A stretch of 64,000 nt of DNA from Candidatus Levyibacteriota bacterium (GTDB taxonomy: Bacteria > Patescibacteriota > Microgenomatia > Levybacterales > UBA12049): positions 402,915 through 466,914 of the forward strand of contig JACOXU010000001.1 in the NCBI GenBank assembly GCA_016182185.1. Reading direction: 5' to 3'. The notes beneath the pieces were generated by a model. The model was not told the origin of the DNA. It saw only the letters and a list, made by a program, of their open reading frames with translations, and searched no databases. The position numbers were made by a program, and so were the translations under genes. Of this stretch, positions 1 through 51,909 are shown one piece after another; positions within the stretch are counted from its first letter, which is position 1, and every line of letters begins with the position of its first letter.

Positions 1-2385
1 GCAAAAAATATCGATAAAGAAGAAATAAAAAAGACCGAAGAGTTGGCAAATGCTTATAAAAAATATGAAGAGATAAAAATAAAAGAAGGATTGATGGATT
101 TTTCAGATTTGATAAATAATTCTCTTAAGCTTCTAAGAATCAGAGAAAATATTCTTAAATCATATCAAGAAAAGTTTAAATATATTTTGGTTGATGAATT
201 TCAAGATACTAATTTTGCACAAAACGAACTGGCAATACTTCTTGCTGGAAAAAATCAAAATATAATGATTGTTGGGGACGACGATCAGGCTATATACCGC
301 TTCCGAGGGGCGGCTGTTTCAAACATAATTCAATTTAAAAAACATTTTAAAAAGGCCAAGATAATTACTCTTACAAAAAATTATAGATCAACTAAAGAAA
401 TTCTTGATAAATCCTATAAACTTATACAAAGCAATAATCCTGACAGACTTGAGGTTAAAGAAAAAATTGATAAGAAATTAATATCCATGCGAAAATTAAA
501 TGGAGAAAAAATTGATTTTCTTTATAACAATCGTGTCGAAGAAGAAGCAGAATCAGTAATTAGAAAAATTAAAACTTTAATTTCGGAAAAAAAATTAGAT
601 TATAAAGATATTGCAATTTTGGTCAGGGCCAACGATCATTCACAACCATTTGTACGAGCTTTCGAACGTGCACGTATTCCCTATCAATTTTTGGGACCTG
701 GTCAGTTGTTTCATCAGGAAGAAATAAAGGATCTAATAGCTTATCTTAAAGTGCTTTACGATTTTGAAGATTCGGCCTCATTATACAGAGTCTTATCGAT
801 ATCAAACTTCAATTTTGAGGCGCGGGATATTGCGGCAATCTTAAATTTTGCCAGAAAAAGGAATATGGATCTTTTTGAAACACTTGAACACATAGACGAA
901 ACATTTCTTAACGACAAGGCGAAAGAGAAAGTCACATATGTTGTAAGGATGATAAAACGCCATCTAAAATTAGTGCCAAAAGAAACAGCCGGTCAAATTC
1001 TTTATTATTTTCTAAAAGACACCGGAATGCTTAAAAAAATGCTCTATATTGAAAGTATCAAAGATGAAAAAAAATCCCAAAATATTGCCAGATTTTTTGA
1101 TAAATTAAAAACTTTTGAAGTCGAGAATGCGGATGCATCTGTATTTTCCGTCGTTGACTGGATTGACCTTTCCATGCAAATGGGAGAAAGCCCATTGGCC
1201 GCTGATATCGATTGGACCGAAAATAATGCCGTCAATATTCTAACTATTCACTCAAGTAAGGGCCTCGAATTCCCCGCCGTATTTTTGGTGAATCTGGTCG
1301 TTGGCCGCTTTCCAACACGTGAAAGAACTGAACAAATTCCAATTCCTCAAGAGCTTATTAAAGAGATTTTACCCATCGGTGATTTTCATCTTGAAGAAGA
1401 GCGTCGACTTTTTTATGTAGGAATGACAAGAGCAAAAGATTTTCTCTTGTTGACTGCATCAAATTTTTACGGCGAGGGTAAAAGAGAGAAAAAAATTTCT
1501 CCTTTTGTTTCTGAGACACTTGGGGAAGAAACTATAGAAAAAATTAAACCAACTGCTAAAAGTGCTATTCAAACATCACTTCTTGAATGGGAACAGCCGG
1601 TTATCTCAAGCGAAAAGTTACAGAAAAGTAAACTTCAAGTCTCAAATGGAGTAACTTATCTTTCCTACTCTCAAATTCAAACATTTGATATCTGCCCTAT
1701 GCATTATAAATTAAGATATATGCTCAAAATCCCCGTACCCCAGACTTCGGCCCAAAGTTTTGGAACGAGCGTCCATGCGGCGCTTCGTGATTATTATCAA
1801 AATTGGATTTTTGGAAATAAACCAAAAATAGAAGACGTTTCTAAGTTTCTTGAAAAAGAATGGATAAATGAGGGTTATGCAAGTAAGGCTCATGAGAAAA
1901 GTGCATTTGTTAAAGCACAAAAAATCGCTATAGCATATCTTAAAAATAATTTTGATAAAACCCGTTTGCCTCTGGCGCTTGAGCTCCCTTTTCAGTTTGT
2001 AATAAAAAATTTAAAGATTGGGGGAAGAATAGATAGGGTAGATAAAATTGATAATCAAAAAATAGAAATTATAGATTATAAAACTGGGGACAATGTTCCG
2101 GATGAAAAAAAGCTCGCGAAAGATTTACAGCTTACATTCTATGCTCTTGCCGCAACCGAAGTTCATGATGCAATTCTTAATAAAAAACCGGATGAGGTCT
2201 TGCTTTCACTATATTATTTGGAACGTGAAAAAAAACTGACAACTACAAGAACTAAAGAGCAACTTGAAGAGGCAAAAAAGATGATTTTGGAAAAAGCCGA
2301 AGAAATCTCAAAAAGCGAATTTCTCTGCTCAGGTTCTGCTCTTTGCAAGAACTGCGAATACAAAATCCTCTGCGGGGTTAAATAA
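1..2385 (+). CDS. UvrD/PcrA-like superfamily-1 helicase fused to a C-terminal RecB-family PD-(D/E)xK nuclease domain with Cys4 cluster. It is 5'-partial: the reading frame is open to position 1 and motif I (Walker A) is missing.
   Basis: SF1 motifs are present: YILVDEFQDTN (II), IMIVGDDDQAIYRFRGA (III), TKNYRST (IV), VLTIHSSKGLEFPAVFLV (V/VI). The C-terminal nuclease motifs are GGRIDRVD and EIIDYKTG. The Cys cluster is CPMHYK ... CSGSALCKNCEYKILC, as in AddB/Cas4 Fe-S nucleases. The ORF-track start at 43 is a TTG in a frame that stays open upstream. Confidence 0.8.
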   Translation, partial: AKNIDKEEIKKTEELANAYKKYEEIKIKEGLMDFSDLINNSLKLLRIRENILKSYQEKFKYILVDEFQDTNFAQNELAILLAGKNQNIMIVGDDDQAIYRFRGAAVSNIIQFKKHFKKAKIITLTKNYRSTKEILDKSYKLIQSNNPDRLEVKEKIDKKLISMRKLNGEKIDFLYNNRVEEEAESVIRKIKTLISEKKLDYKDIAILVRANDHSQPFVRAFERARIPYQFLGPGQLFHQEEIKDLIAYLKVLYDFEDSASLYRVLSISNFNFEARDIAAILNFARKRNMDLFETLEHIDETFLNDKAKEKVTYVVRMIKRHLKLVPKETAGQILYYFLKDTGMLKKMLYIESIKDEKKSQNIARFFDKLKTFEVENADASVFSVVDWIDLSMQMGESPLAADIDWTENNAVNILTIHSSKGLEFPAVFLVNLVVGRFPTRERTEQIPIPQELIKEILPIGDFHLEEERRLFYVGMTRAKDFLLLTASNFYGEGKREKKISPFVSETLGEETIEKIKPTAKSAIQTSLLEWEQPVISSEKLQKSKLQVSNGVTYLSYSQIQTFDICPMHYKLRYMLKIPVPQTSAQSFGTSVHAALRDYYQNWIFGNKPKIEDVSKFLEKEWINEGYASKAHEKSAFVKAQKIAIAYLKNNFDKTRLPLALELPFQFVIKNLKIGGRIDRVDKIDNQKIEIIDYKTGDNVPDEKKLAKDLQLTFYALAATEVHDAILNKKPDEVLLSLYYLEREKKLTTTRTKEQLEEAKKMILEKAEEISKSEFLCSGSALCKNCEYKILCGVK

Positions 2386-2387
2386 AA

Positions 2388-2700
2388 AACTCTGGAGAGA
2401 GAGTAAGCCAGATTCTGTTTCTACCGCAATCTATCTACGCCCTTTACTTGATGCTTCCGTAAGGGAGTATAGCGCATCATTCTAAGGTTGCAGCAGGTAG
2501 GATTGCCCGTTTCACTTTCACTCGTCTCTGTTGCTCTCAAGTCTTGTCAATTCAAGACCTGTTTCAAACTCCGCATGTGAATAAAGAGTCTGAACACCGT
2601 TTTCCCGGAGCTTACGCTCCGTCCCTTCCTTACTGCTGTCTGGACTTTCCTCCCCAATCATGTTTTAGGTGATCGGGGTAGCGGTTCTTCTCCCCAGAGC
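2388..2700 (-). ncRNA. rnpB: RNase P RNA (bacterial type A)
   Basis: The minus strand reads GCUCUGGGGAGAAG...GGGGAGGAAAGUCCAGACAGC (P4 5' half, matching GGAAAGUCC) and ...ACAGAAUCUGGCUUACUCUCUCUCCAGAG-UUUUUU (P4 3' half, ACAGAAnCnGGCUUA). A P1 helix pairs CUCUGGGGAGA with UCUCUCCAGAG. The length of about 310 nt is right for this RNA. Confidence 0.8.
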
Positions 2701-31234: not shown

Positions 31235-32029
31235 TTAATTTTTCTCCTTCAGAAAATTTTCTTTAATCTTGTCTATTGAATCCTTCATCAAAACCACAGA
31301 ATTTGCTTCTAAAATTTCATATGTATTAATAAGATTTGCACTTACTACGTCTATGCCTTCGAGATTCCTTGCTGCTCTATAAATGTTTTCCAGTCCATTT
31401 TTTGCAGGGCTTGGAACAATTAGAAGCACCTTTCTCTTTTTTTGATCAAATCCTAATTTTCCGAGCGTTGAGTTCATTTGTTTAGTCTTTGGCTCAATTT
31501 TTTCAAGCCCTGCAATTATTTTTACACTTCCGGTATTTTGCTTTAAAGACAAAGCAGAAAAAAGTGCTACTTTCTTCATTTTCTTGGAAAGCTTAAGCGA
31601 ATAATCTCTTGGCTTTGGTCCAAATACTACACCGCCGCCTACAAAAATTGGAGCTTTTCTTGATCCGTGTCTTGCGCGACCAGTTCCTTTTTGCCTCCAT
31701 ACTTTTTTGGTTGATCCCGTAACTTCTCCTCTTGTTTGAGTCGATACAGTTCCTCGTCTTTGATTTGCTAAGTAAACTCTTACGGCTTGGGCCATAAGCT
31801 GGTTATTTATCTTGGCTCCGAAAATTTCCTTAGGTAAAGTTACTCTTGAAACTACCTTTCCTTGCGTGTTATAGACCTGAGCTGAGAGACTCGGGCTTTT
31901 GGCGGAAGGGATTTTTGTAACCGCCTTTTTGACAACTTCTTTCTTCCTTTGAGCAACTTTTGACTTTTCACTTTTTCCGCCAGAGGCGGATTGGCTTTTG
32001 GCCGGAACTTTTGACTTTTTAGCTGGCAC
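31235..32029 (-). CDS. rplD: 50S ribosomal protein L4 with an N-terminal Lys/Ala/Ser-rich extension of about 45 aa
   Basis: ...RQKGTGRARHGSRKAPIFVGGGVVFGPKPR... Confidence 0.85.
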   Translation of the reverse strand: MPAKKSKVPAKSQSASGGKSEKSKVAQRKKEVVKKAVTKIPSAKSPSLSAQVYNTQGKVVSRVTLPKEIFGAKINNQLMAQAVRVYLANQRRGTVSTQTRGEVTGSTKKVWRQKGTGRARHGSRKAPIFVGGGVVFGPKPRDYSLKLSKKMKKVALFSALSLKQNTGSVKIIAGLEKIEPKTKQMNSTLGKLGFDQKKRKVLLIVPSPAKNGLENIYRAARNLEGIDVVSANLINTYEILEANSVVLMKDSIDKIKENFLKEKN

Positions 32030-32993
32030 TTTCTTTGTCCTCCTTGCTTTCTTTTTCCTCCGATGAATCGTTTGTTTTTGTGGCGATAGGCGTTTGTCCA
32101 GTTTCAGGTGAATCTAAATTCGACCCAAGGCCTTCTTGTTTTTCTTTTACCTCGGGTGTCTGAATTTCGCTTAGCGAGCCAGAATTCTCTCCTGTTTTAT
32201 CCTCAGCTTGGCGAGCGTCACCCGAAATCTGCGGTGAACGACTATCGCCATTCTCTTCTGGCTGACTTGCCGAAGCTTCTACTTTTTCTGTTTGAGTATT
32301 TTCTAATTCTTTATTTTCAGTTTTTTCTTCCTCAGTCTTTTTACTTGTTCCATATAATGGTACAAATTTTTTGTTTTCTCCAACTTTGGTAACCATTATC
32401 AAAGTATTTTTCCCTCCAGGAACAAGCCCTTTGATAAGAAGTGTGTCTTCCGAGACTCCGACAACTTCCAGATTTTTGATGGTTACTCTTTCATGCCCCA
32501 TTCTTCCTGCCATTCTTTTGCCTTTGTAAACTCTCCCCGGCGTGGTTGTTTGCCCGATGGAGCCGGGTGCTCTTTCTCTGTCTGACTGACCGTGAGTGCG
32601 AGGCCCTCCCTTGAAATGGTGTCTTTTGACAACTCCTGCGTAACCTTTTCCCTTGGAAACCCCTGTCACATCTACGATGTCGCCTAGTTTGAAGATTTCA
32701 GTGGCGCTTATTACTGCTCCAATTTCTGGAACTTCTCCATTCTCAACTTTGACCTCTCTCAAAAATTTAGGGGCAGATTCTAAGTTTGCCCCTTTAATGT
32801 GTCCCACTAATGCTTTGCTTGCGTTCTTTTTGATGCCGAGTCCAAGTTGCAAAGAAGAATAATCGTGTTTGTCTTTGGACTTAATAGCTACAACCGTATT
32901 CCCTGCAACCCACAAACGGGTTACAGGAATTCTTGTCCCGTCATCCAAAAATTTCTGTGTCTGATCAATTTTTGTACCTAAAATTGCTTGCAT
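32019..32993 (-). CDS. rplC: 50S ribosomal protein L3 with a C-terminal acidic low-complexity tail of about 130 aa
   Basis: The start was trimmed to MQAILGTKIDQTQKF. The ORF-track N-terminus (to 33044) overlies the leader hairpin. The tail is Glu/Ser/Thr/Lys-rich. Confidence 0.9.
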   Translation of the reverse strand: MQAILGTKIDQTQKFLDDGTRIPVTRLWVAGNTVVAIKSKDKHDYSSLQLGLGIKKNASKALVGHIKGANLESAPKFLREVKVENGEVPEIGAVISATEIFKLGDIVDVTGVSKGKGYAGVVKRHHFKGGPRTHGQSDRERAPGSIGQTTTPGRVYKGKRMAGRMGHERVTIKNLEVVGVSEDTLLIKGLVPGGKNTLIMVTKVGENKKFVPLYGTSKKTEEEKTENKELENTQTEKVEASASQPEENGDSRSPQISGDARQAEDKTGENSGSLSEIQTPEVKEKQEGLGSNLDSPETGQTPIATKTNDSSEEKESKEDKESAS

Positions 32994-33028
32994 ATATGTA
33001 TTTATCCTGAGCCTGCCGAATGGACAAC

Positions 33029-33056
33029 AAAAAAAGCGACCCACTTAGAGTCGCCT
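33029..33056 (-). terminator. Attenuator-like or terminator hairpin in the rplC leader
   Basis: The minus strand reads GCGAC-tctaagtgg-GTCGC followed by TTTTTTT. Confidence 0.4.
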
Positions 33057-33177: not shown

Positions 33178-33726
33178 TTAACTTACAGGAAGTTCCCGAA
33201 GAATAAAGGTGTTTAAGGGTGTAGACGGTTTTCTACTGACATTACTTCTGATAAATACGCTTTTCAAAACAACTTCTGCCGGAACTTCAGCTTCACCATC
33301 TACTGCGAGCGCGCAATCTTTGCAAGAAAATGTACCAAGGTCGCGAGTCTTTATTGTAGCTTTAGATCCCTTCGCCATAGCTCTAATATCTTCATCGACA
33401 TTTAATGGAATGCCGCCATTCCCATGCTGAATACAGTGAACTGGCCTATGGGGATAAATCGTGCACTTTTTATCCCTTCCTAAAAATGGGCACTGAGTTA
33501 CTTTAGGATCTTTTGCTCGTCTCTGAGCTCGCTTAACGACCCACTTTTTAATATCTCCTCTTGCTAAAGCATCGCTAATTATTTTTTTGTCACCATAAAC
33601 CATACTAACGTTTGCCTTGCAGCATCCGCCATCTATCCCTTTACAAAAATTATATTCTCTGAAAGAGGAATCAAATCGTTCAACTTTTTCTCGAAATTCC
33701 GGGTACTCAATTTCAGGCACACGCAT
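33178..33726 (-). CDS. YkgJ/UPF0153 family Cys-rich protein (putative zinc- or iron-chelating domain CxxCxGxCC)
   Basis: CKGIDGGCCKANV ... CPFLGRDKKCTIYPHRPVHC matches the PF03692-type pattern. Confidence 0.6.
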   Translation of the reverse strand: MRVPEIEYPEFREKVERFDSSFREYNFCKGIDGGCCKANVSMVYGDKKIISDALARGDIKKWVVKRAQRRAKDPKVTQCPFLGRDKKCTIYPHRPVHCIQHGNGGIPLNVDEDIRAMAKGSKATIKTRDLGTFSCKDCALAVDGEAEVPAEVVLKSVFIRSNVSRKPSTPLNTFILRELPVS

Positions 33727-33744: not shown

Positions 33745-34053
33745 TTACATTTTTATTTCGATGTTGACTCCGGCAGGAAGCTCCAGATGGGTTAGGGAAT
33801 CGATTGTTTTATCCGTCGGAGAAACTATATCGATCAATCTTTTGTGAACTTTTATCTCGAAATGATCTCTGGCATCTTTATCGATAAATGGGGATTTGTT
33901 GACTGCGTAGACGCTTCTTTGTGAAGGAAGAGGCACAGGACCTATGACCTTTGCACCTGTCCTGATTGCAGTATCTAAGATCTGCTGACAGCAAAGGTCA
34001 ATTACCCGGGCATCATAACTTTTTAAACGTACTCTAATCCGTCCTTTAGGCAT
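33745..34053 (-). CDS. rpsJ: 30S ribosomal protein S10
   Basis: MPKGRIRVRLKSYDARVIDLCCQQI... Confidence 0.9.
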   Translation of the reverse strand: MPKGRIRVRLKSYDARVIDLCCQQILDTAIRTGAKVIGPVPLPSQRSVYAVNKSPFIDKDARDHFEIKVHKRLIDIVSPTDKTIDSLTHLELPAGVNIEIKM

Positions 34054-34106
34054 TCAGCTATTTTACTATAAGAGGGGTAATTATTCAAGAAGTATGTGAG
34101 AAAACA

Positions 34107-34406
34107 TTAATTACTGACGGGCTCTCTGTGGCCGGCTGAAAATACTTCAGGAGTCTTCTTGCTTCTTTCAAAAATCACTCCCGATTCCAATAGCTGACCC
34201 TCAAGTTCAGTCGGATAATATAGTTTTGCTTCTCCGGGTCTATCCACATGCGTGTCAAAAACTATAAACATCGGTGTTTTAGTTTCACCGATTGTGTATC
34301 CTTCAGTATTAGTCTCCAATACTTCTCTATTGATGCTATCTTTGTTGCTTCTTACAAATCCGATAAAAGCTTGAGATTGTTCTTTGGATAAATGTGCTTC
34401 CGGCAT
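34107..34406 (-). CDS. Small hypothetical protein, paralog A of the tuf-rpsJ array
   Basis: A 99-aa protein starting with MP and carrying a C-terminal GVIFE motif shared with paralogs B, C and the broken copy. Confidence 0.45.
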   Translation of the reverse strand: MPEAHLSKEQSQAFIGFVRSNKDSINREVLETNTEGYTIGETKTPMFIVFDTHVDRPGEAKLYYPTELEGQLLESGVIFERSKKTPEVFSAGHREPVSN

Positions 34407-34412
34407 AATAAT

Positions 34413-34748
34413 TTATTTAAGAATTCCCGGATTATTTAGGGACTGGGAGTCTTCCTCGGTAAACGAACATATAGAATCCATGCTTGGCCACCTTGAAGAT
34501 TCAAAAATCACTCCGGCTGTTTTTAATTCCTCCGCATGTCTTTCGCTAACATAGAAGCTATCAAATCTTTCTCGATCATTAGACCATAAAACAATAGGCT
34601 CCCCGTCAACCTCATAAATCCTGGCTGCATGATTATGGGGTATATTTGAAGAAGTCAAAAAATTTCCCCTACCTTGGTGAAGCTTTCCGTAAATCCAGCC
34701 ATTTAGTTTATCAAATTGTTGTTCTGTTTCGATTTCAATCCTCGGCAT
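34413..34748 (-). CDS. Small hypothetical protein, paralog B of the tuf-rpsJ array
   Basis: A 111-aa protein carrying YEVDGE and AGVIFES motifs. Confidence 0.45.
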   Translation of the reverse strand: MPRIEIETEQQFDKLNGWIYGKLHQGRGNFLTSSNIPHNHAARIYEVDGEPIVLWSNDRERFDSFYVSERHAEELKTAGVIFESSRWPSMDSICSFTEEDSQSLNNPGILK

Positions 34749-34749
34749 A

Positions 34750-35000
34750 TTATTCTCTACGAAATTGTCCCGTCAAGTGAGGATCAAGCGTCATTTTTGC
34801 AAATTTTGATCCAGGAGCTTCGTCTGTTGCACTTTCGCTTTCAAAAATTACCCCTTTTTCTCCTAGTGTCGTTTCTATTTCATCCAATACCTCTTGTTCT
34901 CCAAAAACCCTTTGTCTACCTCCTCAACAAGATGGCTTTTTATTTTCTCAAATTTACCAGTTAATCCGCCATTTTTGTTATCAAATTCAATTGTCGGCAT
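34750..35000 (-). pseudogene. Frameshifted member of the small-paralog family
   Basis: The sequence is MPTIEFDNKNGG...ENKRYWMK* and then continues in a different frame as ...EIETTLGEKGVIFESE...GQFRRE*. Confidence 0.45.
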
Positions 35001-35002
35001 AA

Positions 35003-35290
35003 TTAAACAGAGTCTCCGTTGAGATCGTAGATTACTCCTCTTTTTTCCCTTAATTGATCAGCGGCTCCCTCACTTACGATAGCTTTCTCCCACCTATGAA
35101 TAATTCTCGTGTCCACTTGAACACCTAGCAATTCTCCATCAACCTTATATACTTCCAGAGCATTCCCGTTATCCAAAAAGCCCCTTAAAAGATGCTCTCC
35201 TTGCCCTGACTCAATTTTGTCATCAAGCCATTCTCTGAAAGCAAGTCTTTGCGGTTCGTTTATTAAGCTTAATTCTTTAAATGGCGGCAT
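35003..35290 (-). CDS. Small hypothetical protein, paralog C of the tuf-rpsJ array
   Basis: A 95-aa protein carrying YKVDGE and RGVIYD motifs. Confidence 0.45.
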   Translation of the reverse strand: MPPFKELSLINEPQRLAFREWLDDKIESGQGEHLLRGFLDNGNALEVYKVDGELLGVQVDTRIIHRWEKAIVSEGAADQLREKRGVIYDLNGDSV

Positions 35291-35295
35291 AAAAA

Positions 35296-35631
35296 TTATC
35301 CTATCTCTCCTGTTGATCCATTATGTTTTGTGTTGACAACCGTTAAGGTACCATTAATACCATTAATTTCTAATTTTTGACCTTCTTGGTCAAGAAGGAA
35401 AATGTTTTTTTTATTATCTCTTAGATAGCCCTGGCTTAATATTTTTCCACCCCTTAGTCTATTTAGATATCCCAAATTCTCGCCCGTCACATCAACAACA
35501 GTGCTTAAATCGCTAGAAGAAACATTGGCATCTATTGAACCGGCTACAAATTTTTTTTCATCGCCTGAATGGACTTTAGCGCTTGAGGACCCTTCTCCAA
35601 ATTTGAATATTCCTATTTCTGCTGGTGCCAT
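35296..35631 (-). CDS. Small hypothetical Gly/Ser/Asn-rich protein (first gene of the array operon)
   Basis: A 111-aa protein with no clear similarity to A, B or C. It lies 5 nt upstream of C on the same strand. Confidence 0.4.
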   Translation of the reverse strand: MAPAEIGIFKFGEGSSSAKVHSGDEKKFVAGSIDANVSSSDLSTVVDVTGENLGYLNRLRGGKILSQGYLRDNKKNIFLLDQEGQKLEINGINGTLTVVNTKHNGSTGEIG

Positions 35632-35645
35632 AAATATAAAAATGA

Positions 35646-35673
35646 TTATAAACCTAAAAAATAAAAAGTCAAG
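35646..35673 (-). promoter_or_regulatory. Candidate promoter for the small-ORF array (TTGACT-16-TATAAT, 13 nt before the ATG)
   Basis: The hexamers are read on the minus strand. Confidence 0.35.
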
Positions 35674-35740
35674 AATAGAATAGACTAAAATTGTTAAATT
35701 GTTCGATTGTTAAATTATGCAATTCTTATAGTTGCCAATT

Positions 35741-35893
35741 CGAAGTTGAATGCATGAGAGATTAGACGAGTGATTCAGGGGGATTCCTTGTTTATCAAGG
35801 AGGGGGTGAAATCCCCCGAAGAAGAAGTTTAACTTCGAAAGCATGAAACAAGGCTTGGCAAGAGTTTTTGGTACTTTTGTCAATACAAAAGTA
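35741..35893. other. Structured RNA-like element of about 120 nt with a closing helix and internal hairpins, followed by a perfect 9-bp hairpin
   Basis: TTGCCAATTCGAAGTT pairs with AACTTCGAA...TTGGCAA. Internal hairpins are CCTTG-tttat-CAAGG and GGGGG-tgaaat-CCCCC. The trailing hairpin GTACTTTTG-tcaata-CAAAAGTAC lies at 35870-35893. Confidence 0.3.
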
Positions 35894-35940
35894 CAAAGAA
35901 AGTAAGAATGTTATATTAAAATGAAGATTTTAAAGGAGGT

Positions 35941-37128
35941 TTAGGCAATTACCTTCGTGATTACTCCTGCGCCGACGGTTTTTCCGCCTTCCCGGACTGC
36001 AAATCTGAGTCCTTCTTCCATAGCAACAGGGACGATGAGTTTGACTGTCATTTTGGTGTTGTCACCAGGCATGACCATTTCAACTCCTTTAGGAAGTGCG
36101 ACTTCTGCTGTTACATCGGTTGTTCTTATGTAAAATTGCGGTCTGTAGCCTGTAAAGAACGGTGTGTGGCGTCCGCCTTCTTCTTTGGTCAGGATATATA
36201 CTTCTGCTTCAAAATCTTTGTGGGGCTTAATACTGCCCGGTTTGGCAATGACCTGTCCTCTCTCAACATCGTCTTTTTCAACACCTCGAAGAAGAAGCCC
36301 TACATTGTCTCCTGCCTGTCCTTCATCGAGTTGCTTCTTAAACATCTCAACTCCGGTTACGACTGTAGATTTGGTATCTTTGATACCGATAATTTCAACT
36401 GTCTCATTGACTTTAACGACTCCTCTTTCAATTCTCCCTGTTACGACTGTTCCTCGTCCCTTGATTGAGAAAACATCCTCAACAGGCATTAGGAACGGCT
36501 TTTCCAAATCTCTCTTGGGAGTTGGAATGTAACTGTCAACTGCTTCCATAAGAGCCTGAATTTGTTTTTCTGCTTCCGCGTCTCCCTCAAGAGCCTTAAG
36601 TGCCGATCCTCTTATAATTGGCACATCATTTCCTGGGTACTGGTATTTGGTAAGAAGTTCTCTTACTTCCATTTCAACTAAATCCAAAAGCTCAGCATCC
36701 TGAACCATATCACACTTATTCAAGAAAACTACGATAGAAGGAACCTGTACTTGATGGGCAAGAAGAATGTGTTCTCTGGTTTGAGGCATGGGACCGTCTG
36801 GAGCAGACACTACAAGAATGGCACCGTCCATTTGAGCGGCTCCTGTAATCATGTTCTTTATGTAATCTGCGTGTCCCGGAGCATCGATGTGAGCATAGTG
36901 TCTTTTCTCAGTCTCATATTCGATGTGGGTAATATTAATTGTAACTCCTCGGGCTTTTTCCTCGGGAGCATTATCGATATCTTCATATTTCTTGGCTGTT
37001 GCTTTACCTGCTTTGGCCAAAACAGTAGTAATTGCCGCAGTAAGCGTAGTTTTACCATGGTCAACGTGACCGATTGTACCGATATTTACGTGTGGTTTTG
37101 TTCTTTCAAATTTTTTTGCGTCTGCCAT
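35941..37128 (-). CDS. tuf: Elongation factor Tu
   Basis: [15 protein letters not shown] and the [26 protein letters not shown] motif. Confidence 0.98.
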
Positions 37129-37221: not shown

Positions 37222-37791
37222 TTAGAGTGGTAATTTTATTTGCTCAGAAGTTACATAAGCGGTATCAGGAACTATTGACAATACAAACGCAGGTCTTTCC
37301 CATGTTCGAATCTCATAAGAAATTCTACCAGAGACCACAGTATAATCCCATCTCTCATAACCATTTGTACCATCGTGCAGTATTTCTTCTCGTTTGGAAT
37401 CTTTTCCTGAATAAACTCCCATCCTGCCTGAAAGGAGTTTATGAATTGTTGGAAGATCTGTACTTCGAGATTGTCCTGCTTGCGGATAACGATTTATAAA
37501 TTGTGGGGGTCTTAAAATTCTACCCCAAAGAAGAATAAAATCTAGAGACAATCTATCTAACCTATGAATTCCTGAATATAAATGTATAATTTTGGCATCT
37601 GGTCTTATTTCAAATGAAGGATTTAATTCGACATGACTACCTTGGGCACTATAGCCAAGCCGTACAAGCTCCTTATCAGCAATTTCCTGATAATGAGGCA
37701 CAAATTCTTCTAAAATCCGTCTTGATCCTTCCCTTTGTAATTCAGGGAGAAATTGTTCCTGCCTGATTCCGGACTCAACTGTCGAAAGCAC
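37222..37791 (-). CDS. Hypothetical protein, cupin-like paralog E
   Basis: The C-terminal AFVLSIVPDTAYV is shared with the neighbouring ORF (VAVVLVIMPDTADIP). HDGTNGYERWDY is a possible cupin motif 1. Confidence 0.4.
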   Translation of the reverse strand: MLSTVESGIRQEQFLPELQREGSRRILEEFVPHYQEIADKELVRLGYSAQGSHVELNPSFEIRPDAKIIHLYSGIHRLDRLSLDFILLWGRILRPPQFINRYPQAGQSRSTDLPTIHKLLSGRMGVYSGKDSKREEILHDGTNGYERWDYTVVSGRISYEIRTWERPAFVLSIVPDTAYVTSEQIKLPL

Positions 37792-37852
37792 AGGTTAAAA
37801 GGATTCTAAGAAGATTATCTCTCCGAAATTTATCTCCCGTCAATGGGGAAAA

Positions 37853-38446
37853 TTAAGCTGCTTTTTCTTGTCGAGGGATATGAAGTTCTTCGTCAGGAAT
37901 ATCTGCCGTATCAGGCATGATTACCAAAACGACTGCAACACCTTCTGAAATTTCCGCCTGATGGTAAGTTTCCGGTGGAACCATTACATGTGGCGCTGCA
38001 CTACTCAGCGTTACAACCTTCGCACTTTCTTCATTCTCATCATCCATCACAAGATCCATGGATCCTATCAAGCTGATATAGTGCTCGACCACCCTTCTTC
38101 CTTTATACGAATGCTTATGTTCGGATGTCCTGCCGATTGATTCGCCATTCTCTTCGGGTTCCGGTTTTAAAACATAACCATAGATCCTGTAATTGTTTAT
38201 TTTTTGCTCAAGGAAATAGTGGCCGTCGGACTTATGGCCATTTGACTTTATATGTCTTTCTGTCTGTTTCTTGAAATTCAACTGGCTTATATCATCAACG
38301 ATTTTAAGCCATTTAAGAGGCTTGAAAGTAAGCTCCCTATAACCGGGTGCCAATAAATTTAAATCCTCGTGGCTCAGGCTACCATTTGTTTTTCTATTTA
38401 CTGCTTCAGGGTTTATTCCCGTATTTGTTTCTGCTCTTGCTGCCAT
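37853..38446 (-). CDS. Cupin-domain protein, paralog F
   Basis: GRTSEHKHSYKGRRVVEHYISLIG has the spacing G(x)4HxH(x)8E(x)6G. PPETYHQAE fits P-x-x-x-x-H-x-x-x as cupin motif 2. A TATAAT box lies 8 nt before the ATG. Confidence 0.5.
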   Translation of the reverse strand: MAARAETNTGINPEAVNRKTNGSLSHEDLNLLAPGYRELTFKPLKWLKIVDDISQLNFKKQTERHIKSNGHKSDGHYFLEQKINNYRIYGYVLKPEPEENGESIGRTSEHKHSYKGRRVVEHYISLIGSMDLVMDDENEESAKVVTLSSAAPHVMVPPETYHQAEISEGVAVVLVIMPDTADIPDEELHIPRQEKAA

Positions 38447-40739: not shown

Positions 40740-41465
40740 ATGAAAAGTGAATCAGTCATTATAAAGAGCGATGGACATAATCTTTCAGGAACTATTATAA
40801 AACCCGATGGAAATGAAAAGATCCCTGCAGTTGTCTTCTATCACGGCATGATAAGCCAGAGTAAACCCCGATATATTAAACGTGCAGAAGAATTAGCAAA
40901 AGTTGGAATTTCCTCTTTGTGCTTTGACTTTCGAGGCTGCGGTGAAAGTGAAGGAAAACTCGGAGAATTAACTTTGAAAGATTGGCTTGACGATTCAATT
41001 TTGGCTTTTGATTATCTTATCAATCAAGAATTCGTCGACAAAGATAGGATTGGAATAATGGGCAAAAGTTTTGGCGGAGAAATGGCAGCGCTTGTTGCTG
41101 AAAAAAGAAACGTTAGATCAATTGTTCTACATGCGCCTGCTGTTTATCCGGATACGTGGTTCGATGATAAATTTACCTGGGATGAAGAAATAAGCAGAAA
41201 AAGAAAAGAATACAGAAATTCAGAGAAAGCCCTGGATAATAATGCGATAAGAGCGATAGAAAAATTCAAAGGCTCATTATTAGTGGTAGGAAGCGAACTT
41301 GACGGTACATGTCCCAAAACTATAGTTAAAGGTTATTATGAACAGGCAGGATCAACAGACAAAAAAATCGAATGGATAAAAGGTGCCGATCATCCGCTCA
41401 AAGACGAATTCCATAACCACCAACTCACAAAACTCATGCTTGATTGGTTCTCAAAAACCCTTTGA
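40740..41465 (+). CDS. Alpha/beta hydrolase (dienelactone hydrolase / S9 peptidase-like)
   Basis: Nucleophile elbow GKSFGG, with an acid residue in ELDG and a His in GADHPL. A TATAAT box lies 7 nt before the ATG. Confidence 0.7.
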   Translation: MKSESVIIKSDGHNLSGTIIKPDGNEKIPAVVFYHGMISQSKPRYIKRAEELAKVGISSLCFDFRGCGESEGKLGELTLKDWLDDSILAFDYLINQEFVDKDRIGIMGKSFGGEMAALVAEKRNVRSIVLHAPAVYPDTWFDDKFTWDEEISRKRKEYRNSEKALDNNAIRAIEKFKGSLLVVGSELDGTCPKTIVKGYYEQAGSTDKKIEWIKGADHPLKDEFHNHQLTKLMLDWFSKTL

Positions 41466-42065
41466 CTAAATTACTGCGAGGACGGAGAAGTATTGATTTT
41501 GCCTTCGTTCTTCTTGCAAATGTCTTTGTAAAGTATCTTCCGGTGCAGCCGAAATTGAAACATGTAAAGGTAACGACCCTTCAGGTCCTTTAATAACAAA
41601 AGATGGATCATGGTTATTATAGTCGAGAAAAAATGGACCGGTTTCTCTTATCGCTTTTCCATTCTCTCCAAACATGGTAACTTTTACCACTTTATAACTT
41701 TCGGTGTGATCTGGAAAATATCTAAAATCTAACCCATATTGTTTGGCAAAGTCAGAAACTGTATCAATGGTTCGGTCGATTAATCCTACTCGCATGGCTG
41801 TATTGGCCGGTGCAGAATTTAAAATTCTAAGATCTATATCGTTTAAGGGGTGGAATCGTTTTCTTTCCGGTTTTACAGAGCTGCCAATAGCTATGACTCC
41901 TATTTTCTCTCCTTGAAAAAATTGACCGTTTTCTTGAAAAGCGGCGATTAATCTTTGGACTCTTTCTCTATCTATTCCGCTAAGAGTATCTAAATATTCA
42001 CTTGATGGAATCTCTCGTCCTCTTTTTCCTCTTACAATTTCTCCAGCTCTTTCTATAATTTGCAT
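41466..42065 (-). CDS. Polymerase-beta superfamily nucleotidyltransferase-domain protein
   Basis: IGSSVKPERKRFHPLNDIDL matches hG[GS]-x(9-13)-Dh[DE]h. It lies 12 nt downstream of rpsG on the same strand. Confidence 0.55.
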   Translation of the reverse strand: MQIIERAGEIVRGKRGREIPSSEYLDTLSGIDRERVQRLIAAFQENGQFFQGEKIGVIAIGSSVKPERKRFHPLNDIDLRILNSAPANTAMRVGLIDRTIDTVSDFAKQYGLDFRYFPDHTESYKVVKVTMFGENGKAIRETGPFFLDYNNHDPSFVIKGPEGSLPLHVSISAAPEDTLQRHLQEERRQNQYFSVLAVI

Positions 42066-50272: not shown

Positions 50273-50659
50273 TTAGGAGATGGAATAGTTTATTTTTCTC
50301 TCGCTGGGGCCGTTGAGCTCGACCAAAATTACTCTCTGCCAATCGCCTAGCTGTAGTTCGTTATTTTCAAATATTAAAGACAATGAGGTCCCCAGAATTG
50401 ATGAAAGTATATGGTCGGGAGTGTGCGTTGGATCATGAGGATGACGAAATGAGATTTGAGGAATCATTTTTCTTACGGCTTCCAAAATATCTTTATCAGT
50501 TCCCGGATCAAGGTCAGCTGTTGTGAGTGCGCAAGTTGTATGAAGTAAATTAAGAACTATAATCCCATCTTTTTTGCCTGATTTTTTAATTAACTCATTT
50601 ATATCATCCGTAATATCTACAACTTCATCTTTTGTATTTGTTTTAACAGTAAAATTCAT
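50273..50659 (-). CDS. YjbQ/UPF0047 family protein
   Basis: HTTCALT....DLD and a C-terminal LGDWQRVILVELNGP motif. Confidence 0.7.
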   Translation of the reverse strand: MNFTVKTNTKDEVVDITDDINELIKKSGKKDGIIVLNLLHTTCALTTADLDPGTDKDILEAVRKMIPQISFRHPHDPTHTPDHILSSILGTSLSLIFENNELQLGDWQRVILVELNGPSERKINYSIS

Positions 50660-51909
50660 ATCCTTTTATTTTCCAATCTTCGCAAAGCCTTATCTTTTGC
50701 GATTGGATCGATTCTAGATTTACCCACTGCTTTTTGCAATATATTAATAGTAGCATCGTAAGTCTCTCTACCTACAGGATATGGAATTGCATCTTTTCCT
50801 CCATGTGCAAAACTGTATCTCGCCGGATCTTCGTAAGACGGGTCTGCTCCATATATAACTTCTCCTACCAGAGACAGGGCGCGTATTGTTTTGGGCCCAA
50901 CTCCTTCAATTGCCAATAAGTCTTCGTAATCTTTTGGACTTTCATAAGTAACTTTTTGGAGAATCTTATCTAGATATTTGCTTTTGGTAAAATCTTCATG
51001 AACAACAGGATGAGTTGTAAAATGCGGATCATTAAGCTTGAGAAAAGTTAATTGCTCTCCATCTTTTCCTTCTTTTTCCGATGGTACTTCAAGAGAAACC
51101 ATTTGAGAGTATTCAGAAAAATGACTTCTGAGAAGTTGTATATCTTTCATCAAGGTGTTATATCCGGATGAAACCAACTCTTGTGACAAATTTCTATTTC
51201 CTTTGCTTTTTTTATCTATGAGATTTAAAACGTTTTTCTCAAAAGCCTGCGATGCAATTCCCGCATGGGGCTCATCTATAAAGTCCTTTCCATATTTTTT
51301 ATTTTTAATATTTAATTTTTGATCTTGTAGCTCGTCATACCAATGATACCGTCTTGCTGTTGAACTGATGGTATTCATCCCCTGCTGAACTACTGCCCAG
51401 CTATCGATAACAGGAACTGAAGAATTTCGGTTTTTTTTTACCGAAAAGAAGAAAGCATGATGATAAATTTGATAACCGTCCTGGACCAGACTTGAGTCTA
51501 CTTTGGCAGTCATTTTTGAACTGTATGAAAGACTTTTTACTTTTTGAGAATCCAAACTTAATTTTTCTCCCCAAGCAAGAATCTCATCTGGTGTTTTCCT
51601 TGAAGTTTTTCCTTTTCCTCCACAGATAAAAATACCTAGTTCTTTTTCCTGTCCGCGGATTGCTTCTTTAAGAGCAGCAGTTAATATAGTGGTGAGACCT
51701 GATGCATTCCAATCAAAGGCAAGAACTGTACCCAATGACTGAAACCAGACAGGATCGGCAATTCTTTTTACAAATTCTGTTGGTCCGTATTCATCAACCA
51801 GGACCCGTGTCATTTCCCGACCCAAAGCAACCATTCGTCTAAAAAGCCAAGGAGGACACTTTCCCGTATCAAGTGTGAAAGTTGCGACGCCTCTTTTCAT
51901 AAGATGCAC
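50656..51909 (-). CDS. DUF763-like protein with a C-terminal helix-hairpin-helix
   Basis: The N-terminal GKCPPWLFRRM and the C-terminal LLAIEGVGPKTIRAL are recalled from memory as DUF763 features. Confidence 0.4.
   Translation of the reverse strand: MHLMKRGVATFTLDTGKCPPWLFRRMVALGREMTRVLVDEYGPTEFVKRIADPVWFQSLGTVLAFDWNASGLTTILTAALKEAIRGQEKELGIFICGGKGKTSRKTPDEILAWGEKLSLDSQKVKSLSYSSKMTAKVDSSLVQDGYQIYHHAFFFSVKKNRNSSVPVIDSWAVVQQGMNTISSTARRYHWYDELQDQKLNIKNKKYGKDFIDEPHAGIASQAFEKNVLNLIDKKSKGNRNLSQELVSSGYNTLMKDIQLLRSHFSEYSQMVSLEVPSEKEGKDGEQLTFLKLNDPHFTTHPVVHEDFTKSKYLDKILQKVTYESPKDYEDLLAIEGVGPKTIRALSLVGEVIYGADPSYEDPARYSFAHGGKDAIPYPVGRETYDATINILQKAVGKSRIDPIAKDKALRRLENKRI

What the first reader, a model, noticed from the sequence alone, without database searches (positions are those of the whole stretch)
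34107..35631. Tandem array of small fast-diverging paralogous ORFs, one frameshifted, inserted at the normally invariant tuf-rpsJ junction
In most bacteria tuf is followed directly by rpsJ. Here five same-strand small genes fill the junction, separated by gaps of only 2-6 nt.
- D: 35296-35631
- C: 35003-35290
- a broken copy: 34750-35000
- B: 34413-34748
- A: 34107-34406
A, B, C and the broken copy are paralogs. They share an MP start, a Y-x-V-DGE box (YEVDGE in B, YKVDGE in C) and a C-terminal G-V-I-F/Y-E/D box (GVIFERS in A, GVIFESS in B, GVIYD in C, GVIFESE in the broken copy). Outside these boxes they are highly divergent. The broken copy reads MPTIEFDNKNGG...ENKRYWMK* and then continues in another frame through ...EIETTLGEKGVIFESE..., so it is either a pseudogene or a homopolymer sequencing error near GGGTTTTTGG. 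D is Gly/Ser/Asn-rich and unrelated to the others.
The array has its own strong promoter (TTGACT-16-TATAAT at 35646-35673). The proteins have no signal peptides, are acidic, and are about 100 aa long. I cannot place them in any family known to me. A tightly packed, rapidly diverging tandem array with a decaying member is what immunity-protein or orphan-cassette arrays of polymorphic toxin or defence systems look like. Finding one embedded between tuf and rpsJ is unusual.
Basis: partly seen in the sequence, partly recalled or inferred. Interest (0 to 1): 0.75.

Follow-up and report, generated by a model that had tools for sequence, protein, structure and literature searches.

The report
Modular small-protein gene array after tuf
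Between the EF-Tu and ribosomal protein S10 genes, a Levybacteria (candidate-phyla) bacterium carries a real array with its own promoter: three intact copies and one deletion-broken copy of an undescribed ~85-residue domain with swappable C-terminal tails. The family has long been resident at that spot, no toxin or defence link could be shown, and its function is unknown.

Summary
Five minus-strand small genes (D, C, broken X, B, A) fill the tuf–rpsJ gap. B and C are clear paralogs (z=14). A is a distant paralog (profile-profile 97%, E 1e-11). D is unrelated.

X is not a homopolymer error. It is a pseudogene made by one 118-nt deletion between AARGGG microhomologies. An intact ortholog exists in a related metagenome contig, and three independent assemblies reproduce the lesion.

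The family has about 25 clusters in 1.8 billion representative proteins and no Pfam, NCBIfam, PADLOC, PHROG or PDB match. It is confined to Levybacteria-like CPR bacteria. In 9 of 11 distinct genomic contexts examined it lies directly upstream of rpsJ; tuf is visible upstream in 6 of these. This includes a single copy in a distant relative (S10 70% identical).

AlphaFold gives a confident β-α-β4-α (TBP/helix-grip-like) domain ending in the motif AGVIFE, followed by a disordered Pro/Ser-rich tail. Tails are a small set of conserved peptide types that are shuffled among domain types.

Orthologs are under purifying selection. Cassettes C and X are more alike between genomes than rpsJ is, which implies lateral exchange.

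No toxin, defence or RiPP gene is linked. The immunity-array reading is unsupported but not excluded. My best guess is non-enzymatic two-module binding or adaptor proteins.

The parts
35645..35672 (-). Array promoter, TTGACT-16-TATAAT. Only 13 nt separate the -10 box from the ATG of D, so the mRNA is leaderless or nearly so.
   Evidence: 11/12 match, the best in the scan. Equivalent promoters lie 9-55 nt before the first array gene in L004, L009, L015, L016, L021, L024 and L039.
35296..35631 (-). D: a 111-aa Gly/Ser/Asn-rich protein, predicted all-beta, unrelated to the A/B/C family. It is the first gene of the array.
   Evidence: Only two relatives were found in 5.8 billion proteins, both first genes of arrays in L004 and L015. 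z=15.8 against the L004 copy. The AF2 model is poor, pLDDT 53.
35003..35290 (-). C: a 95-aa family member. The domain is 35024-35290 (ends in GVIYD) and the 6-aa tail LNGDSV is 35006-35023.
   Evidence: It is 90.3% nt identical to L009:428-747 while rpsJ is 82.9% identical. pS is 0.22 against 0.63 for rpsJ, and dN/dS is 0.30.
34750..35000 (-). X: a pseudogene remnant of a family member. The deletion junction lies within AAAGGG at 34908-34913, after GAC at 34914-34916. GVIFE is at 34840-34854.
   Evidence: a 118-nt deletion relative to the intact 104-aa ortholog L015:593-907. Flanks are 90% and 97% identical. The lesion is reproduced in 3 assemblies.
34413..34748 (-). B: a 111-aa family member. 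The domain is 34500-34748 (ends in GVIFE) and the 28-aa disordered tail ending in PGILK is 34416-34499.
   Evidence: AF2 mean pLDDT is 85; the core (residues 1-83) is above 90 and the tail about 60.
34107..34406 (-). A: a 99-aa member of the divergent 'A-type'. The domain is 34167-34406 and the 19-aa tail ending in GHREPVSN is 34110-34166. A-type is the anchor gene next to rpsJ in five of the arrays examined.
   Evidence: A-type orthologs lie immediately upstream of rpsJ in L004, L009 and L016. In L020 an A-type gene is the last array gene, but the contig ends before rpsJ.
34060..34088 (-). Separate rpsJ promoter-like site, TTGAAT-17-TAAAAT, 6 nt before the rpsJ ATG.
   Evidence: 9/12 match. 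Promoter-like sites in the same position in L004, L009, L015 and L016.
35632..35940 (-). tuf-to-array spacer. It contains a perfect 10-bp hairpin (GTACTTTTGT/ACAAAAGTAC) just after tuf and a structured stretch of about 130 nt. It lies upstream of the array promoter.
   Evidence: fold z=-4.6. Patches are conserved in L015, L016 and L021. No Rfam family matches.
35941..37128 (-). tuf (EF-Tu), the upstream flank.
   Evidence: It is 81% nt identical to L004 and 84% to L016.
33745..34053 (-). rpsJ (S10), the downstream flank.
   Evidence: Pfam Ribosomal_S10 is assigned to the gene at this position in the related loci.

Best explanation
SHOWN
- The array encodes an undescribed family of small, acidic, cytoplasmic two-module proteins restricted to Levybacteria-like CPR bacteria.
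- Module 1 is a domain of about 83 residues with consensus MPxIEF..W..K..G...VDGEP...SE..A.EL..AGVIFE. It is predicted with high confidence to fold as β1-α1-β2-β3-β4-β5-α2, the strand and helix order of a single TBP/helix-grip-like domain.
- Module 2 is a disordered Pro/Ser-rich tail of 2-55 residues. It ends in one of a small set of conserved peptides: GDxV, GGHREPV, SPGILK, SGSGNFK, KEPHxPYYGD or EKLDVSP.
- The family gene has sat at the boundary between the str operon (ending in tuf) and the S10 operon since before these lineages diverged. It is a single copy in a distant relative and has expanded into arrays of 2-5 copies in the clade of this genome.
- Each array has its own near-consensus promoter.
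- The X copy was broken by a 118-nt deletion between microhomologies.
- Tails and domains have discordant relationships.
- Cassettes C and X are more alike between genomes than rpsJ is.

INFERRED
- The array changes by unequal or illegitimate recombination at conserved cassette boundaries: the 5' ATGCCG..ATTGAATTTGA sequence and the AGVIFE codons. This would produce duplications, the deletion that killed X, and swaps of whole tails at the AGVIFE boundary.
- Cassettes C and X have recently moved between lineages by recombination.
- The array is transcribed as a tightly coupled polycistron with little or no leader. rpsJ keeps a promoter of its own.

INFERRED MECHANISM, LOW CONFIDENCE
- The proteins are non-enzymatic binding or adaptor proteins.
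- The conserved domain supplies a common function, either binding one partner or oligomerising. The exposed, most conserved AGVIFE segment is a candidate for strand addition.
- Each paralog presents a different C-terminal docking peptide, so an array gives the cell a non-redundant set of tails.
- The stated confidence covers the whole statement. The anatomy and evolution alone I would put near 0.85, and the adaptor mechanism near 0.3.
For: Family and distribution
- A profile of A, B and C finds 26 small proteins of 81-142 aa in 1.84 billion representatives.
- Only two of 185,579 GTDB species representatives carry an A-type gene, one Levybacteria and one Patescibacteria MAG.
- The sources' own names are Candidatus Levybacteria and Patescibacteria.

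Fold
- AF2 mean pLDDT is 85 and the core is above 90, with element order E3-5, H9-24, E28-36, E40-47, E50-56, E64-66, H69-77. The tail scores about 60.
- This matches the TBP-domain order B1-H1-B2-B3-B4-B5-H2 described in PMC3597702.

Position
- The gene lies directly upstream of rpsJ in the window and in L004/L007, L009, L015, L016, L021, L022, L024 and L039.
- tuf is visible upstream in the window and in L004, L016, L021, L022 and L024.
- L022 has one copy, while its S10 is only 70% and its EF-Tu 78% identical to the window's.

Selection
- dN/dS is 0.13-0.39 for A and 0.30 for C.

Lateral exchange
- C is 90% nt identical to L009, and the X flanks are 90% and 97% identical to L015. rpsJ is 83% in both comparisons.
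- pS is 0.22 for C against 0.63 for rpsJ.

Tail shuffling
- P032-type example: P0032 and L009_728 share 73% of the tail but 27% of the domain.
- A and P0009 share 58% of the tail but 28% of the domain.
- A-type domains that are 70% identical to each other carry unrelated tails (21-28%).
- X and its ortholog diverge completely right after GVIFE.

Other points
- Tails are enriched in Pro (2.3x) and Ser (1.9x) and poor in aromatic residues.
- Within each array all tails differ.
- Short junction segments of 28-36 nt at 87-93% identity are shared between otherwise dissimilar cassettes.
Against: - No partner, oligomer or binding activity has been shown. The adaptor role is inferred only from architecture.
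- The conserved Pro-2 and Glu-5 could point to a catalytic or ligand site that I did not identify.
- Two lineages carry a member away from ribosomal genes, between ndk and VKOR/DsbA genes (L008, and L036/L050). The tuf-rpsJ position is therefore not obligatory.
- The higher nucleotide identity of C and X could in principle reflect an unrecognised nucleotide-level constraint rather than transfer.
- Only about ten genomic contexts were available, many on short contigs.
Confidence: 0.4

Rival explanations
1. The array would be a set of immunity or antitoxin-like neutralisers: orphan cassettes of a polymorphic-toxin or defence system. Each paralog would bind and block a different toxin, with the disordered tail acting as the neutralising element.
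For: - The proteins are small, acidic and cytoplasmic, and occur in a tandem array of divergent paralogs with variable copy number and one pseudogene.
- Cassettes appear to move between lineages.
- The architecture is modular, with a conserved junction motif.
- HicAB toxin-antitoxin modules and an IS1595 transposase occupy the same or adjacent gaps in relatives. These gaps therefore collect accessory and mobile genes.
- A folded domain with a disordered C-terminal tail is the usual layout of type II antitoxins (my own knowledge).
Against: - No toxin, effector, Rhs/LXG/CdiA fragment or defence gene was found among the 30 larger non-ribosomal ORFs of the window scanned against Pfam. None is adjacent to the family gene in any locus examined.
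- There are no PADLOC hits and no Pfam or NCBIfam immunity or antitoxin family hits in any of 28 members.
- The family is present as a single copy at the same place in a distant relative.
- The A-type is a positionally conserved ortholog under purifying selection.
- Tail types form a small conserved repertoire rather than being hypervariable.
Confidence: 0.17
2. The proteins would be accessory factors of the translation apparatus. They would be co-expressed with EF-Tu and the S10 operon, and their flexible acidic tails would end in docking peptides that recruit or regulate partners at EF-Tu or the ribosome. This is functionally analogous to ribosomal stalk proteins.
For: - The position between tuf and rpsJ is conserved across deep divergence, including a single-copy state with only 61 nt after tuf and 42 nt before rpsJ.
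- The A-type is always the gene next to rpsJ where it is present.
- No terminator-like site was predicted between the array and rpsJ.
- The proteins are acidic, with a folded N-domain and a flexible tail ending in a conserved motif.
- In RNase HIII and TBP the TBP-like fold binds nucleic acids.
Against: - The array has its own promoter and so does rpsJ.
- In this genome unrelated genes (cupin-like, CxxCxxCC, an alpha/beta hydrolase, unknowns) occupy the three neighbouring junctions as well, so the location alone is weak evidence.
- Members also occur at an ndk/VKOR locus.
- The family is far too narrowly distributed and too variable in copy number for a core translation component.
- dN/dS is about 10 times that of rpsJ.
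Confidence: 0.15
3. The genes would be RiPP-like precursors. The 83-residue domain would be a large leader or scaffold (as in Nif11/NHLP precursors), AGVIFE would mark the leader-core junction, and the variable tails would be core peptides that are modified, cleaved or exported.
For: - Several tandem precursor-like genes have a conserved N-terminal part and a variable C-terminal part.
- The most conserved motif sits exactly at the junction.
- Recombination occurs at that junction.
- Conserved residues lie at the extreme C-terminus.
Against: - No maturase, RRE protein, peptidase-ABC exporter or radical-SAM gene lies in the array or among the 30 larger window ORFs scanned against Pfam.
- There are no NCBIfam hits, and that library includes Nif11 and NHLP leader models.
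- Cys makes up only 0.2% of tail residues, and tails are Pro/Ser-rich linker-like sequences.
- Some tails are only 2-6 residues long.
- Tail types are conserved rather than hypervariable.
Confidence: 0.06
4. The ORFs would be non-functional: chance ORFs, decaying junk, or an assembly or sequencing artefact.
For: - One copy is broken.
- No known family matches.
- D has almost no relatives.
Against: - Orthologs occur in at least ten independent contigs, with dN/dS well below 1.
- The AF2 fold is confident.
- Three independent assemblies are identical.
- Promoters are conserved.
Confidence: 0.02

Closest known systems
Orphan immunity / variable C-terminal cassette arrays of polymorphic toxin loci (CdiA-CT/CdiI, Rhs, LXG)
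   Same: - Tandem, same-strand, tightly spaced divergent small genes.
- Copy-number variation between strains.
- Decayed members.
- A conserved junction motif (here AGVIFE) after which sequences are swapped.
- Signs of lateral cassette exchange.
   Different: - There is no toxin gene or toxin fragment anywhere nearby.
- The variable parts are 2-55-residue disordered peptides, too short for toxin domains.
- No immunity-family match was found.
- The family sits vertically at one chromosomal junction, even as a single copy.
Single TBP-domain / helix-grip-like proteins (archaeal TbpA-type monopartite TBP domains; RNase HIII N-terminal domain; PMC3597702)
   Same: - Same predicted order of secondary-structure elements (β-α-β4-α) and a similar size of about 85 residues.
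   Different: - There is no sequence or profile similarity to the Pfam TBP clan or to DUF3378.
- The proteins are acidic rather than nucleic-acid-binding in character.
- A disordered tail is added.
- Homology is not established.
Ribosomal stalk proteins (bacterial L7/L12; archaeal/eukaryotic P1/P2). This is a lead from my own knowledge, not a tested relationship.
   Same: - Small acidic proteins with a folded N-terminal part and a flexible linker.
- In P proteins, a conserved C-terminal peptide docks onto translational GTPases.
- Several paralogs exist in eukaryotes.
- The genes lie in the translation gene cluster.
   Different: - The fold is unrelated.
- The distribution is lineage-restricted.
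- Many different tail peptides exist instead of one.
- There is no evidence of ribosome binding.
Nif11/NHLP-type RiPP precursor families
   Same: - A large conserved N-terminal domain and a variable C-terminal peptide.
- Multiple tandem copies.
- N- and C-terminal parts evolve discordantly.
   Different: - No leader-family match, no Gly-Gly cleavage motif, almost no Cys, and no maturase or exporter nearby.
Core-gene-flanked integration hotspots, for example the E. coli K-12 tufA-rpsJ gap (chiA, bfd, bfr, gsp genes)
   Same: - The same operon boundary holds non-translation cargo.
- In relatives of this genome, cargo in neighbouring gaps includes HicAB and an IS1595 transposase.
   Different: - Here the cargo is one expanding paralog family with its own conserved promoter. 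It was inherited at the site across lineages rather than being a mixed island.

Membership tests
Polymorphic-toxin immunity / orphan cassette array | Adjacent or nearby cognate toxin gene or toxin C-terminal fragments | tested here: not met
   Pfam scan of 30 larger non-ribosomal ORFs of the 64-kb window and the called genes of the related loci. No toxin domain is adjacent to the family gene. HicA occurs only in the separate rpsJ-rplC gap of relatives.
Polymorphic-toxin immunity / orphan cassette array | Match to a described immunity-protein family | tested here: not met
   No Pfam hit at E<0.005 in any of 28 members. Nothing in NCBIfam or PADLOC. PDB profile search gives E>0.7.
Polymorphic-toxin immunity / orphan cassette array | Tandem divergent paralogs with turnover between strains | tested here: met
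   Arrays hold 1-5 members and differ in composition between loci. One member is a pseudogene.
Known anti-phage defence systems (PADLOC-DB) | Profile match of any component | tested here: not met
   no hits at E<=1 for A, B, C, D or the two fusA-tuf gap proteins.
Type II toxin-antitoxin (antitoxin) | Adjacent small toxin gene, and an antitoxin with an RHH/HTH/AbrB DNA-binding domain | tested here: not met
   No toxin partner lies in the array. The predicted fold is β-α-β4-α, not RHH, HTH or AbrB. No Pfam antitoxin hits.
RiPP precursors (Nif11 / NHLP type) | Leader-family profile match | tested here: not met
   No NCBIfam or Pfam hits.
RiPP precursors (Nif11 / NHLP type) | Core rich in modifiable residues, and a linked maturase or exporter | tested here: not met
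   Tail Cys content is 0.2%. No maturase or peptidase-ABC exporter among the window ORFs scanned against Pfam. The rest of the genome could not be searched.
TBP-domain / helix-grip fold | β1-α1-β2-β3-β4-β5-α2 topology of about 85-90 residues | tested here: met
   AF2 element order compared with the topology described in PMC3597702. This is a prediction, not a solved structure.
TBP-domain / helix-grip fold | Significant structural or profile similarity to members (homology) | tested here: inconclusive
   [not shown]
CYTH / triphosphate tunnel metalloenzymes | Eight-stranded tunnel of about 150-200 aa, N-terminal ExExK motif, and conserved basic tunnel residues | tested here: not met
   [not shown]
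Tautomerase superfamily (catalytic N-terminal Pro) | Pro-1 after Met removal, plus the β-α-β tautomerase fold | tested here: not met
   [not shown]
Ribosomal or translation-associated protein | Physical association with the ribosome or EF-Tu | not testable with these tools
   Only gene position is available. This needs biochemistry or complex prediction.

The most novel reading that the evidence does not exclude
The family would be a new class of translation-linked modular adaptors in CPR bacteria. These would be acidic paralogs encoded between tuf and rpsJ, and their interchangeable C-terminal docking peptides would recruit different partners to EF-Tu or the ribosome. In function they would be a stalk-protein-like solution evolved independently, on a TBP-like scaffold, in organisms with reduced ribosomes.
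Probability: 0.08. Interest if true: 0.8.

Novelty: new variant of a known kind. Interest (0 to 1): 0.42.

Why it matters
CPR bacteria make up a large share of bacterial diversity, and most of their lineage-specific proteins are unassigned. This finding defines one such family precisely. It gives the domain boundaries, a confident fold prediction, a repertoire of conserved swappable tail peptides, a conserved promoter, and a fixed chromosomal address next to the most conserved genes in the genome.

The family is a tractable case for two questions:
- How small modular proteins evolve, through domain and tail shuffling at a conserved junction and cassette exchange between lineages using ultra-conserved flanks.
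- What accessory functions CPR bacteria attach to their translation gene cluster.

If the tails prove to be docking peptides for translation factors, the result would be of broad interest. If the family is a neutraliser array, it would extend immunity-like systems to CPR. On present evidence it is a well-described family of unknown function, not a demonstrated new mechanism.

Tried and rejected
1. Homopolymer sequencing error or programmed frameshift for X. Rejected: the alignment to the intact ortholog shows a 118-nt deletion that removes the β-sheet core, so restoring the frame could not give a folded protein. Three assemblies agree.
4. Large repeat proteins P0004, P0005, P0010 and P0028 in the HMM search. 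Their scores are summed over unrelated repeats, so they are spurious.
5. D as an informative partner. Only two relatives exist and the AF2 model is unusable at pLDDT 53. An apparent similarity of D to L036:13311-13631 (z=4.7) did not survive BLASTP with composition adjustment or hhalign. A different small family does co-occur with family members in both genomic contexts (L024:1124-1477 and L036:12831-13199, BLASTP E 9e-5). Its meaning is unknown.
6. Single-sequence search with B found only B itself.
7. The search for related loci with broad alignments failed for lack of a conserved stretch. I replaced it with an A-type alignment and a degenerate DNA pattern.
8. The one viral-contig pattern match (L052) did not encode a family member.
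9. The afdb50 fold library was unavailable.
10. Literature searches for Levybacteria or CPR ribosomal-operon insertions returned nothing.
11. Rfam search of the tuf-D spacer gave only chance-level hits.
Full report
**What is there**

The window comes from a Candidatus Levybacteria (CPR/Microgenomates) metagenome-assembled genome. The public name of protein B is 'hypothetical protein HYT08_02405 [Candidatus Levybacteria bacterium]'.

On the minus strand the gene order is tuf (35941-37128), a 309-nt spacer, D (35296-35631), C (35003-35290), the broken copy X (34750-35000), B (34413-34748), A (34107-34406), a 53-nt spacer, and rpsJ (33745-34053). The gaps between the small genes are 1-6 nt.

Logan assemblies of three different sequencing runs (SRR12113420, SRR12113384, SRR12113383) match the region at 100% identity with no gaps, including the frame break. 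This is neither an assembly chimera nor a consensus error.

**Are they paralogs?**

- B and C are clearly related: Smith-Waterman z=14.4 against 500 shuffles.
- A is not convincingly related to B or C as a single sequence (z 2.3 and -1.0).
- A profile of eight A-type orthologs against a profile of 24 B/C-type members gives hhalign probability 97.4%, E 1.4e-11 over 89 columns. A is a true but old paralog.
- D is unrelated to all of them.

**The family**

No library recognises any of the proteins: Pfam, NCBIfam, PADLOC, PHROGs and PDB sequences all give nothing.

A full HMMER scan of 1.84 billion representative proteins with a profile of A, B and C found 30 hits at E<=1e-3.
- Four are long repeat proteins whose scores are summed over unrelated repeats.
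- The other 26 are proteins of 81-142 aa with the same layout. The consensus is MPxIEF..Q..F..W..K..G....VDGEP......SE..A.EL.EAGVIFE, followed by a variable C-terminal tail.

Only two of 185,579 GTDB species representatives carry an A-type gene, a Levybacteria MAG and a Patescibacteria MAG. The family is real, small and lineage-restricted.

**Structure**

AlphaFold2 on B with the 28-sequence alignment gives mean pLDDT 85. Residues 1-83 score above 90. The element order is β(3-5) α(9-24) β(28-36) β(40-47) β(50-56) β(64-66) α(69-77). The tail (84-111) scores about 60, which indicates disorder.

This order is the B1-H1-B2-B3-B4-B5-H2 topology of a single TBP (helix-grip) domain as described in PMC3597702.

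Foldseek finds nothing with E below 0.03 in the PDB or BFVD libraries.

I therefore describe the fold as TBP/helix-grip-like and do not claim homology. I considered two enzyme ideas and dropped both:
- Tautomerase, suggested by the conserved Met-Pro start.
- Half of a CYTH tunnel, suggested by the 'IEFE' start.
The defining motifs and fold matches are absent for both.

**The broken copy**

A related contig (L015, run SRR22388305) carries an intact 104-aa ortholog of X. The DNA alignment shows that the window's X differs by one 118-nt deletion. The missing segment is flanked by AAGGGG on one side and AAAGGG on the other, and the junction lies at window 34908-34916.

- The deletion removes 38-39 codons that encode the β-sheet core.
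- Because 118 is not a multiple of 3, it also shifts the frame.
- On either side the two sequences are 90% and 97% identical.

X is therefore a recent deletion pseudogene. It is not a homopolymer error, and a programmed frameshift could not rescue it.

Immediately after the GVIFE codons the two tails are unrelated.

**Where the family lives**

I recovered eleven distinct genomic contexts. The gene or array lies directly upstream of rpsJ in nine of them:

| Locus | Gene order |
|---|---|
| window | tuf, D, C, X, B, A, rpsJ |
| L004/L007 | tuf, D-like, A-type, rpsJ |
| L009 | promoter, 111-aa member, C-type, 110-aa member, A-type, rpsJ |
| L015 | 110-aa first gene (weakly D-like), X-type, three members, rpsJ |
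| L016 | tuf, two members, A-type, rpsJ |
| L021 | tuf, two members and one borderline member, rpsJ |
| L024 | tuf, one member, an unrelated 117-aa gene, rpsJ |
| L039 | IS1595 transposase, promoter, one member, rpsJ |
| L022 | tuf, one member, rpsJ |

L020 is a short contig with a four-gene array and no flanks.

L022 is a distant relative: its S10 is 70% and its EF-Tu 78% identical to the window's. It carries a single copy, 61 nt after tuf and 42 nt before rpsJ.

One other lineage has a member at a different place, between ndk and VKOR/DsbA genes (L008, and L036/L050).

The family has therefore been at the tuf|rpsJ boundary since before these lineages split, and it expanded into arrays in the window's clade.

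**How special is the junction?**

- E. coli K-12 has 17 genes (chiA, bfd, bfr, gspO-A, gspB) between tufA and rpsJ.
- In this window, non-ribosomal genes also occupy three neighbouring junctions:
  - rpsG|fusA: a 199-aa unknown and an opposite-strand α/β hydrolase.
  - fusA|tuf: a cupin-like 197-aa protein and a 189-aa unknown.
  - rpsJ|rplC: a CxxCxxCC protein.
- In relatives the rpsJ|rplC gap holds HicB-HicA.

**Expression signals**

- The TTGACT-16-TATAAT promoter (35672-35645) is the best match in the region, at 11 of 12 positions.
- A matching TTGAC(T/A)-16..18-TATAAT site precedes the first array gene in L004, L009, L015, L016, L021, L024 and L039. Several of these lie only 9-13 nt from the ATG, which implies a leaderless or nearly leaderless mRNA.
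- rpsJ has its own promoter-like site in each locus examined.
- No terminator-like site was predicted between the array and rpsJ, so read-through is possible.

**Evolutionary behaviour**

- Orthologs are under purifying selection. dN/dS is 0.13-0.39 for A-type and 0.30 for C, against 0.01-0.03 for rpsJ. The large distances between A, B and C reflect age, not runaway divergence.
- Some cassettes are more similar between genomes than the flanking housekeeping genes.
  - C is 90.3% nt identical to its L009 copy (pS 0.22), where rpsJ is 82.9% (pS 0.63).
  - The X flanks are 90% and 97% identical to L015, where rpsJ is 82.9%.
  - The simplest reading is recent exchange of cassettes between lineages.
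- Domain and tail have discordant histories.
  - P0032 (A-type domain) shares 73% of its tail with L009_728 but only 27% of its domain.
  - A shares 58% of its tail with P0009 but 28% of its domain.
  - A-type domains that are 70% identical carry unrelated tails (21-28%).
- Tails fall into a small set of conserved types (...GDxV...GGHREPV.....SPGILK...SGSGNFK...KEPHxPYYGD...EKLDVSP). Sub-modules within them are also shared.
- Tails are enriched in Pro (2.3x) and Ser (1.9x), poor in aromatic residues, and almost free of Cys (0.2%).
- Within every array the tails are all different.
- Short stretches at gene junctions and 5' ends (28-36 nt, 87-93% identical) are shared by otherwise dissimilar cassettes. 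Together with the conserved AGVIFE codons, they are plausible substrates for unequal or illegitimate recombination.

**Interpretation**

What is shown:
- An undescribed two-module small-protein family.
- Its predicted fold.
- Its ancient residence at the str|S10 boundary.
- Its expansion into an array with its own promoter.
- Deletion of one member.
- Tail shuffling and cassette exchange.

What is inferred is the function. I favour non-enzymatic binding or adaptor proteins. A common domain, possibly oligomerising through the exposed and invariant AGVIFE segment, would present one of several docking peptides.

The reasons are these:
- The two modules are separately conserved and freely recombined.
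- The tails look like linear-motif-bearing linkers.
- No catalytic signature or enzyme fold was found.

**Rival explanations**

It lacks every specific hallmark: no toxin, no immunity family, no defence match, and vertical single-copy residence in a distant relative.
- A translation-linked role is suggested only by position. That evidence is weakened by the many unrelated genes in neighbouring gaps, the independent promoters, and the ndk/VKOR locus.
- A RiPP-precursor reading fits the leader/core-like architecture. It is contradicted by the tail composition and by the absence of any maturase or exporter among the 30 larger window ORFs scanned.

**Verdict**

This is a well-defined new family in a familiar kind of arrangement: a lineage-specific paralog array at an operon boundary, with a modular architecture of conserved domain and variable tail. 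Its function is unknown.

Interest is moderate. It would be high only if the tails prove to dock onto the translation machinery.

Noticed in passing
window 2392-2697 (-): The RNase P RNA of this bacterial (CPR) genome scores to Rfam's archaeal model RF00373 (86.5 bits, gathering score 84) rather than to a bacterial RNase P model.
   Followed up: no
window 33178-33726, 37222-38446, 40740-42065: Non-ribosomal genes occupy three other successive junctions of the str/S10 cluster. rpsJ|rplC holds a CxxCxxCC protein. fusA|tuf holds a cupin-like 197-aa protein and a 189-aa unknown. rpsG|fusA holds a 199-aa unknown and an opposite-strand alpha/beta hydrolase.
   Followed up: partly
L004:6885-7378, L009:1981-2432, L015:2723-3216: In relatives the rpsJ|rplC gap holds a HicB-HicA toxin-antitoxin pair. 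The pair is 87-88% nt identical between genomes whose rpsJ is about 83% identical, so this module also looks laterally exchanged. The L009 HicA copy appears frameshifted or truncated at 60 aa.
   Followed up: partly
window 35632-35940 (-): The tuf-to-array spacer has a perfect 10-bp hairpin (GTACTTTTGT attg ACAAAAGTAC, about 35866-35890) and a structured stretch of about 130 nt. The whole spacer folds with z=-4.6. Patches are conserved upstream of the arrays in L015 and L021, and the hairpin recurs between the A-type gene and rpsJ in L016. No Rfam family matches. It could be a tuf 3' element or an unknown small RNA.
   Followed up: partly
window ~35680-35715 (-); L015:130-170; L016:1090-1140; L004:6370-6400: Repeated (T/C)AACAAT motifs lie just upstream of the array promoter in the window, L015 and L016. 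In L004 they lie upstream of the rpsJ promoter. This suggests a shared regulator site or UP-like element that moved with the promoter.
   Followed up: no
window 32019-33044 and 31235-32029 (-): Ribosomal protein L3 is 341 aa, with a C-terminal extension of about 130 residues rich in acidic residues, Ser and Thr. L4 is 264 aa, with a Lys-rich N-terminal extension of about 60 residues. L3 is similarly long in the relatives (336-345 aa).
   Followed up: no
L004:5650-5710: The D-like gene of the RIFCSP Levybacteria MAG has an 'MAP' ATG start followed 15 codons later by an in-frame TAG. The called gene restarts at a GTG. This may be a decaying or recoded copy.
   Followed up: no
L039:2978-3778 (-): An IS1595-family transposase (Pfam DDE_Tnp_IS1595, E 7e-12) sits immediately upstream of the promoter of a single family gene next to rpsJ. 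Mobile elements therefore also land in this gap.
   Followed up: yes
L024:1124-1477 and L036:12831-13199: A second small unannotated family (MSPIE/MAPIE start; BLASTP E 9e-5) accompanies family members both at the tuf|rpsJ site and at the ndk/VKOR site. It may be a functional partner.
   Followed up: partly
window 50273-51909 (-) and 58807-61080 (+): UPF0047 and DUF763 genes lie directly upstream of rpoB. A 757-aa protein with a weak Baseplate_J-like hit follows alaS.
   Followed up: no
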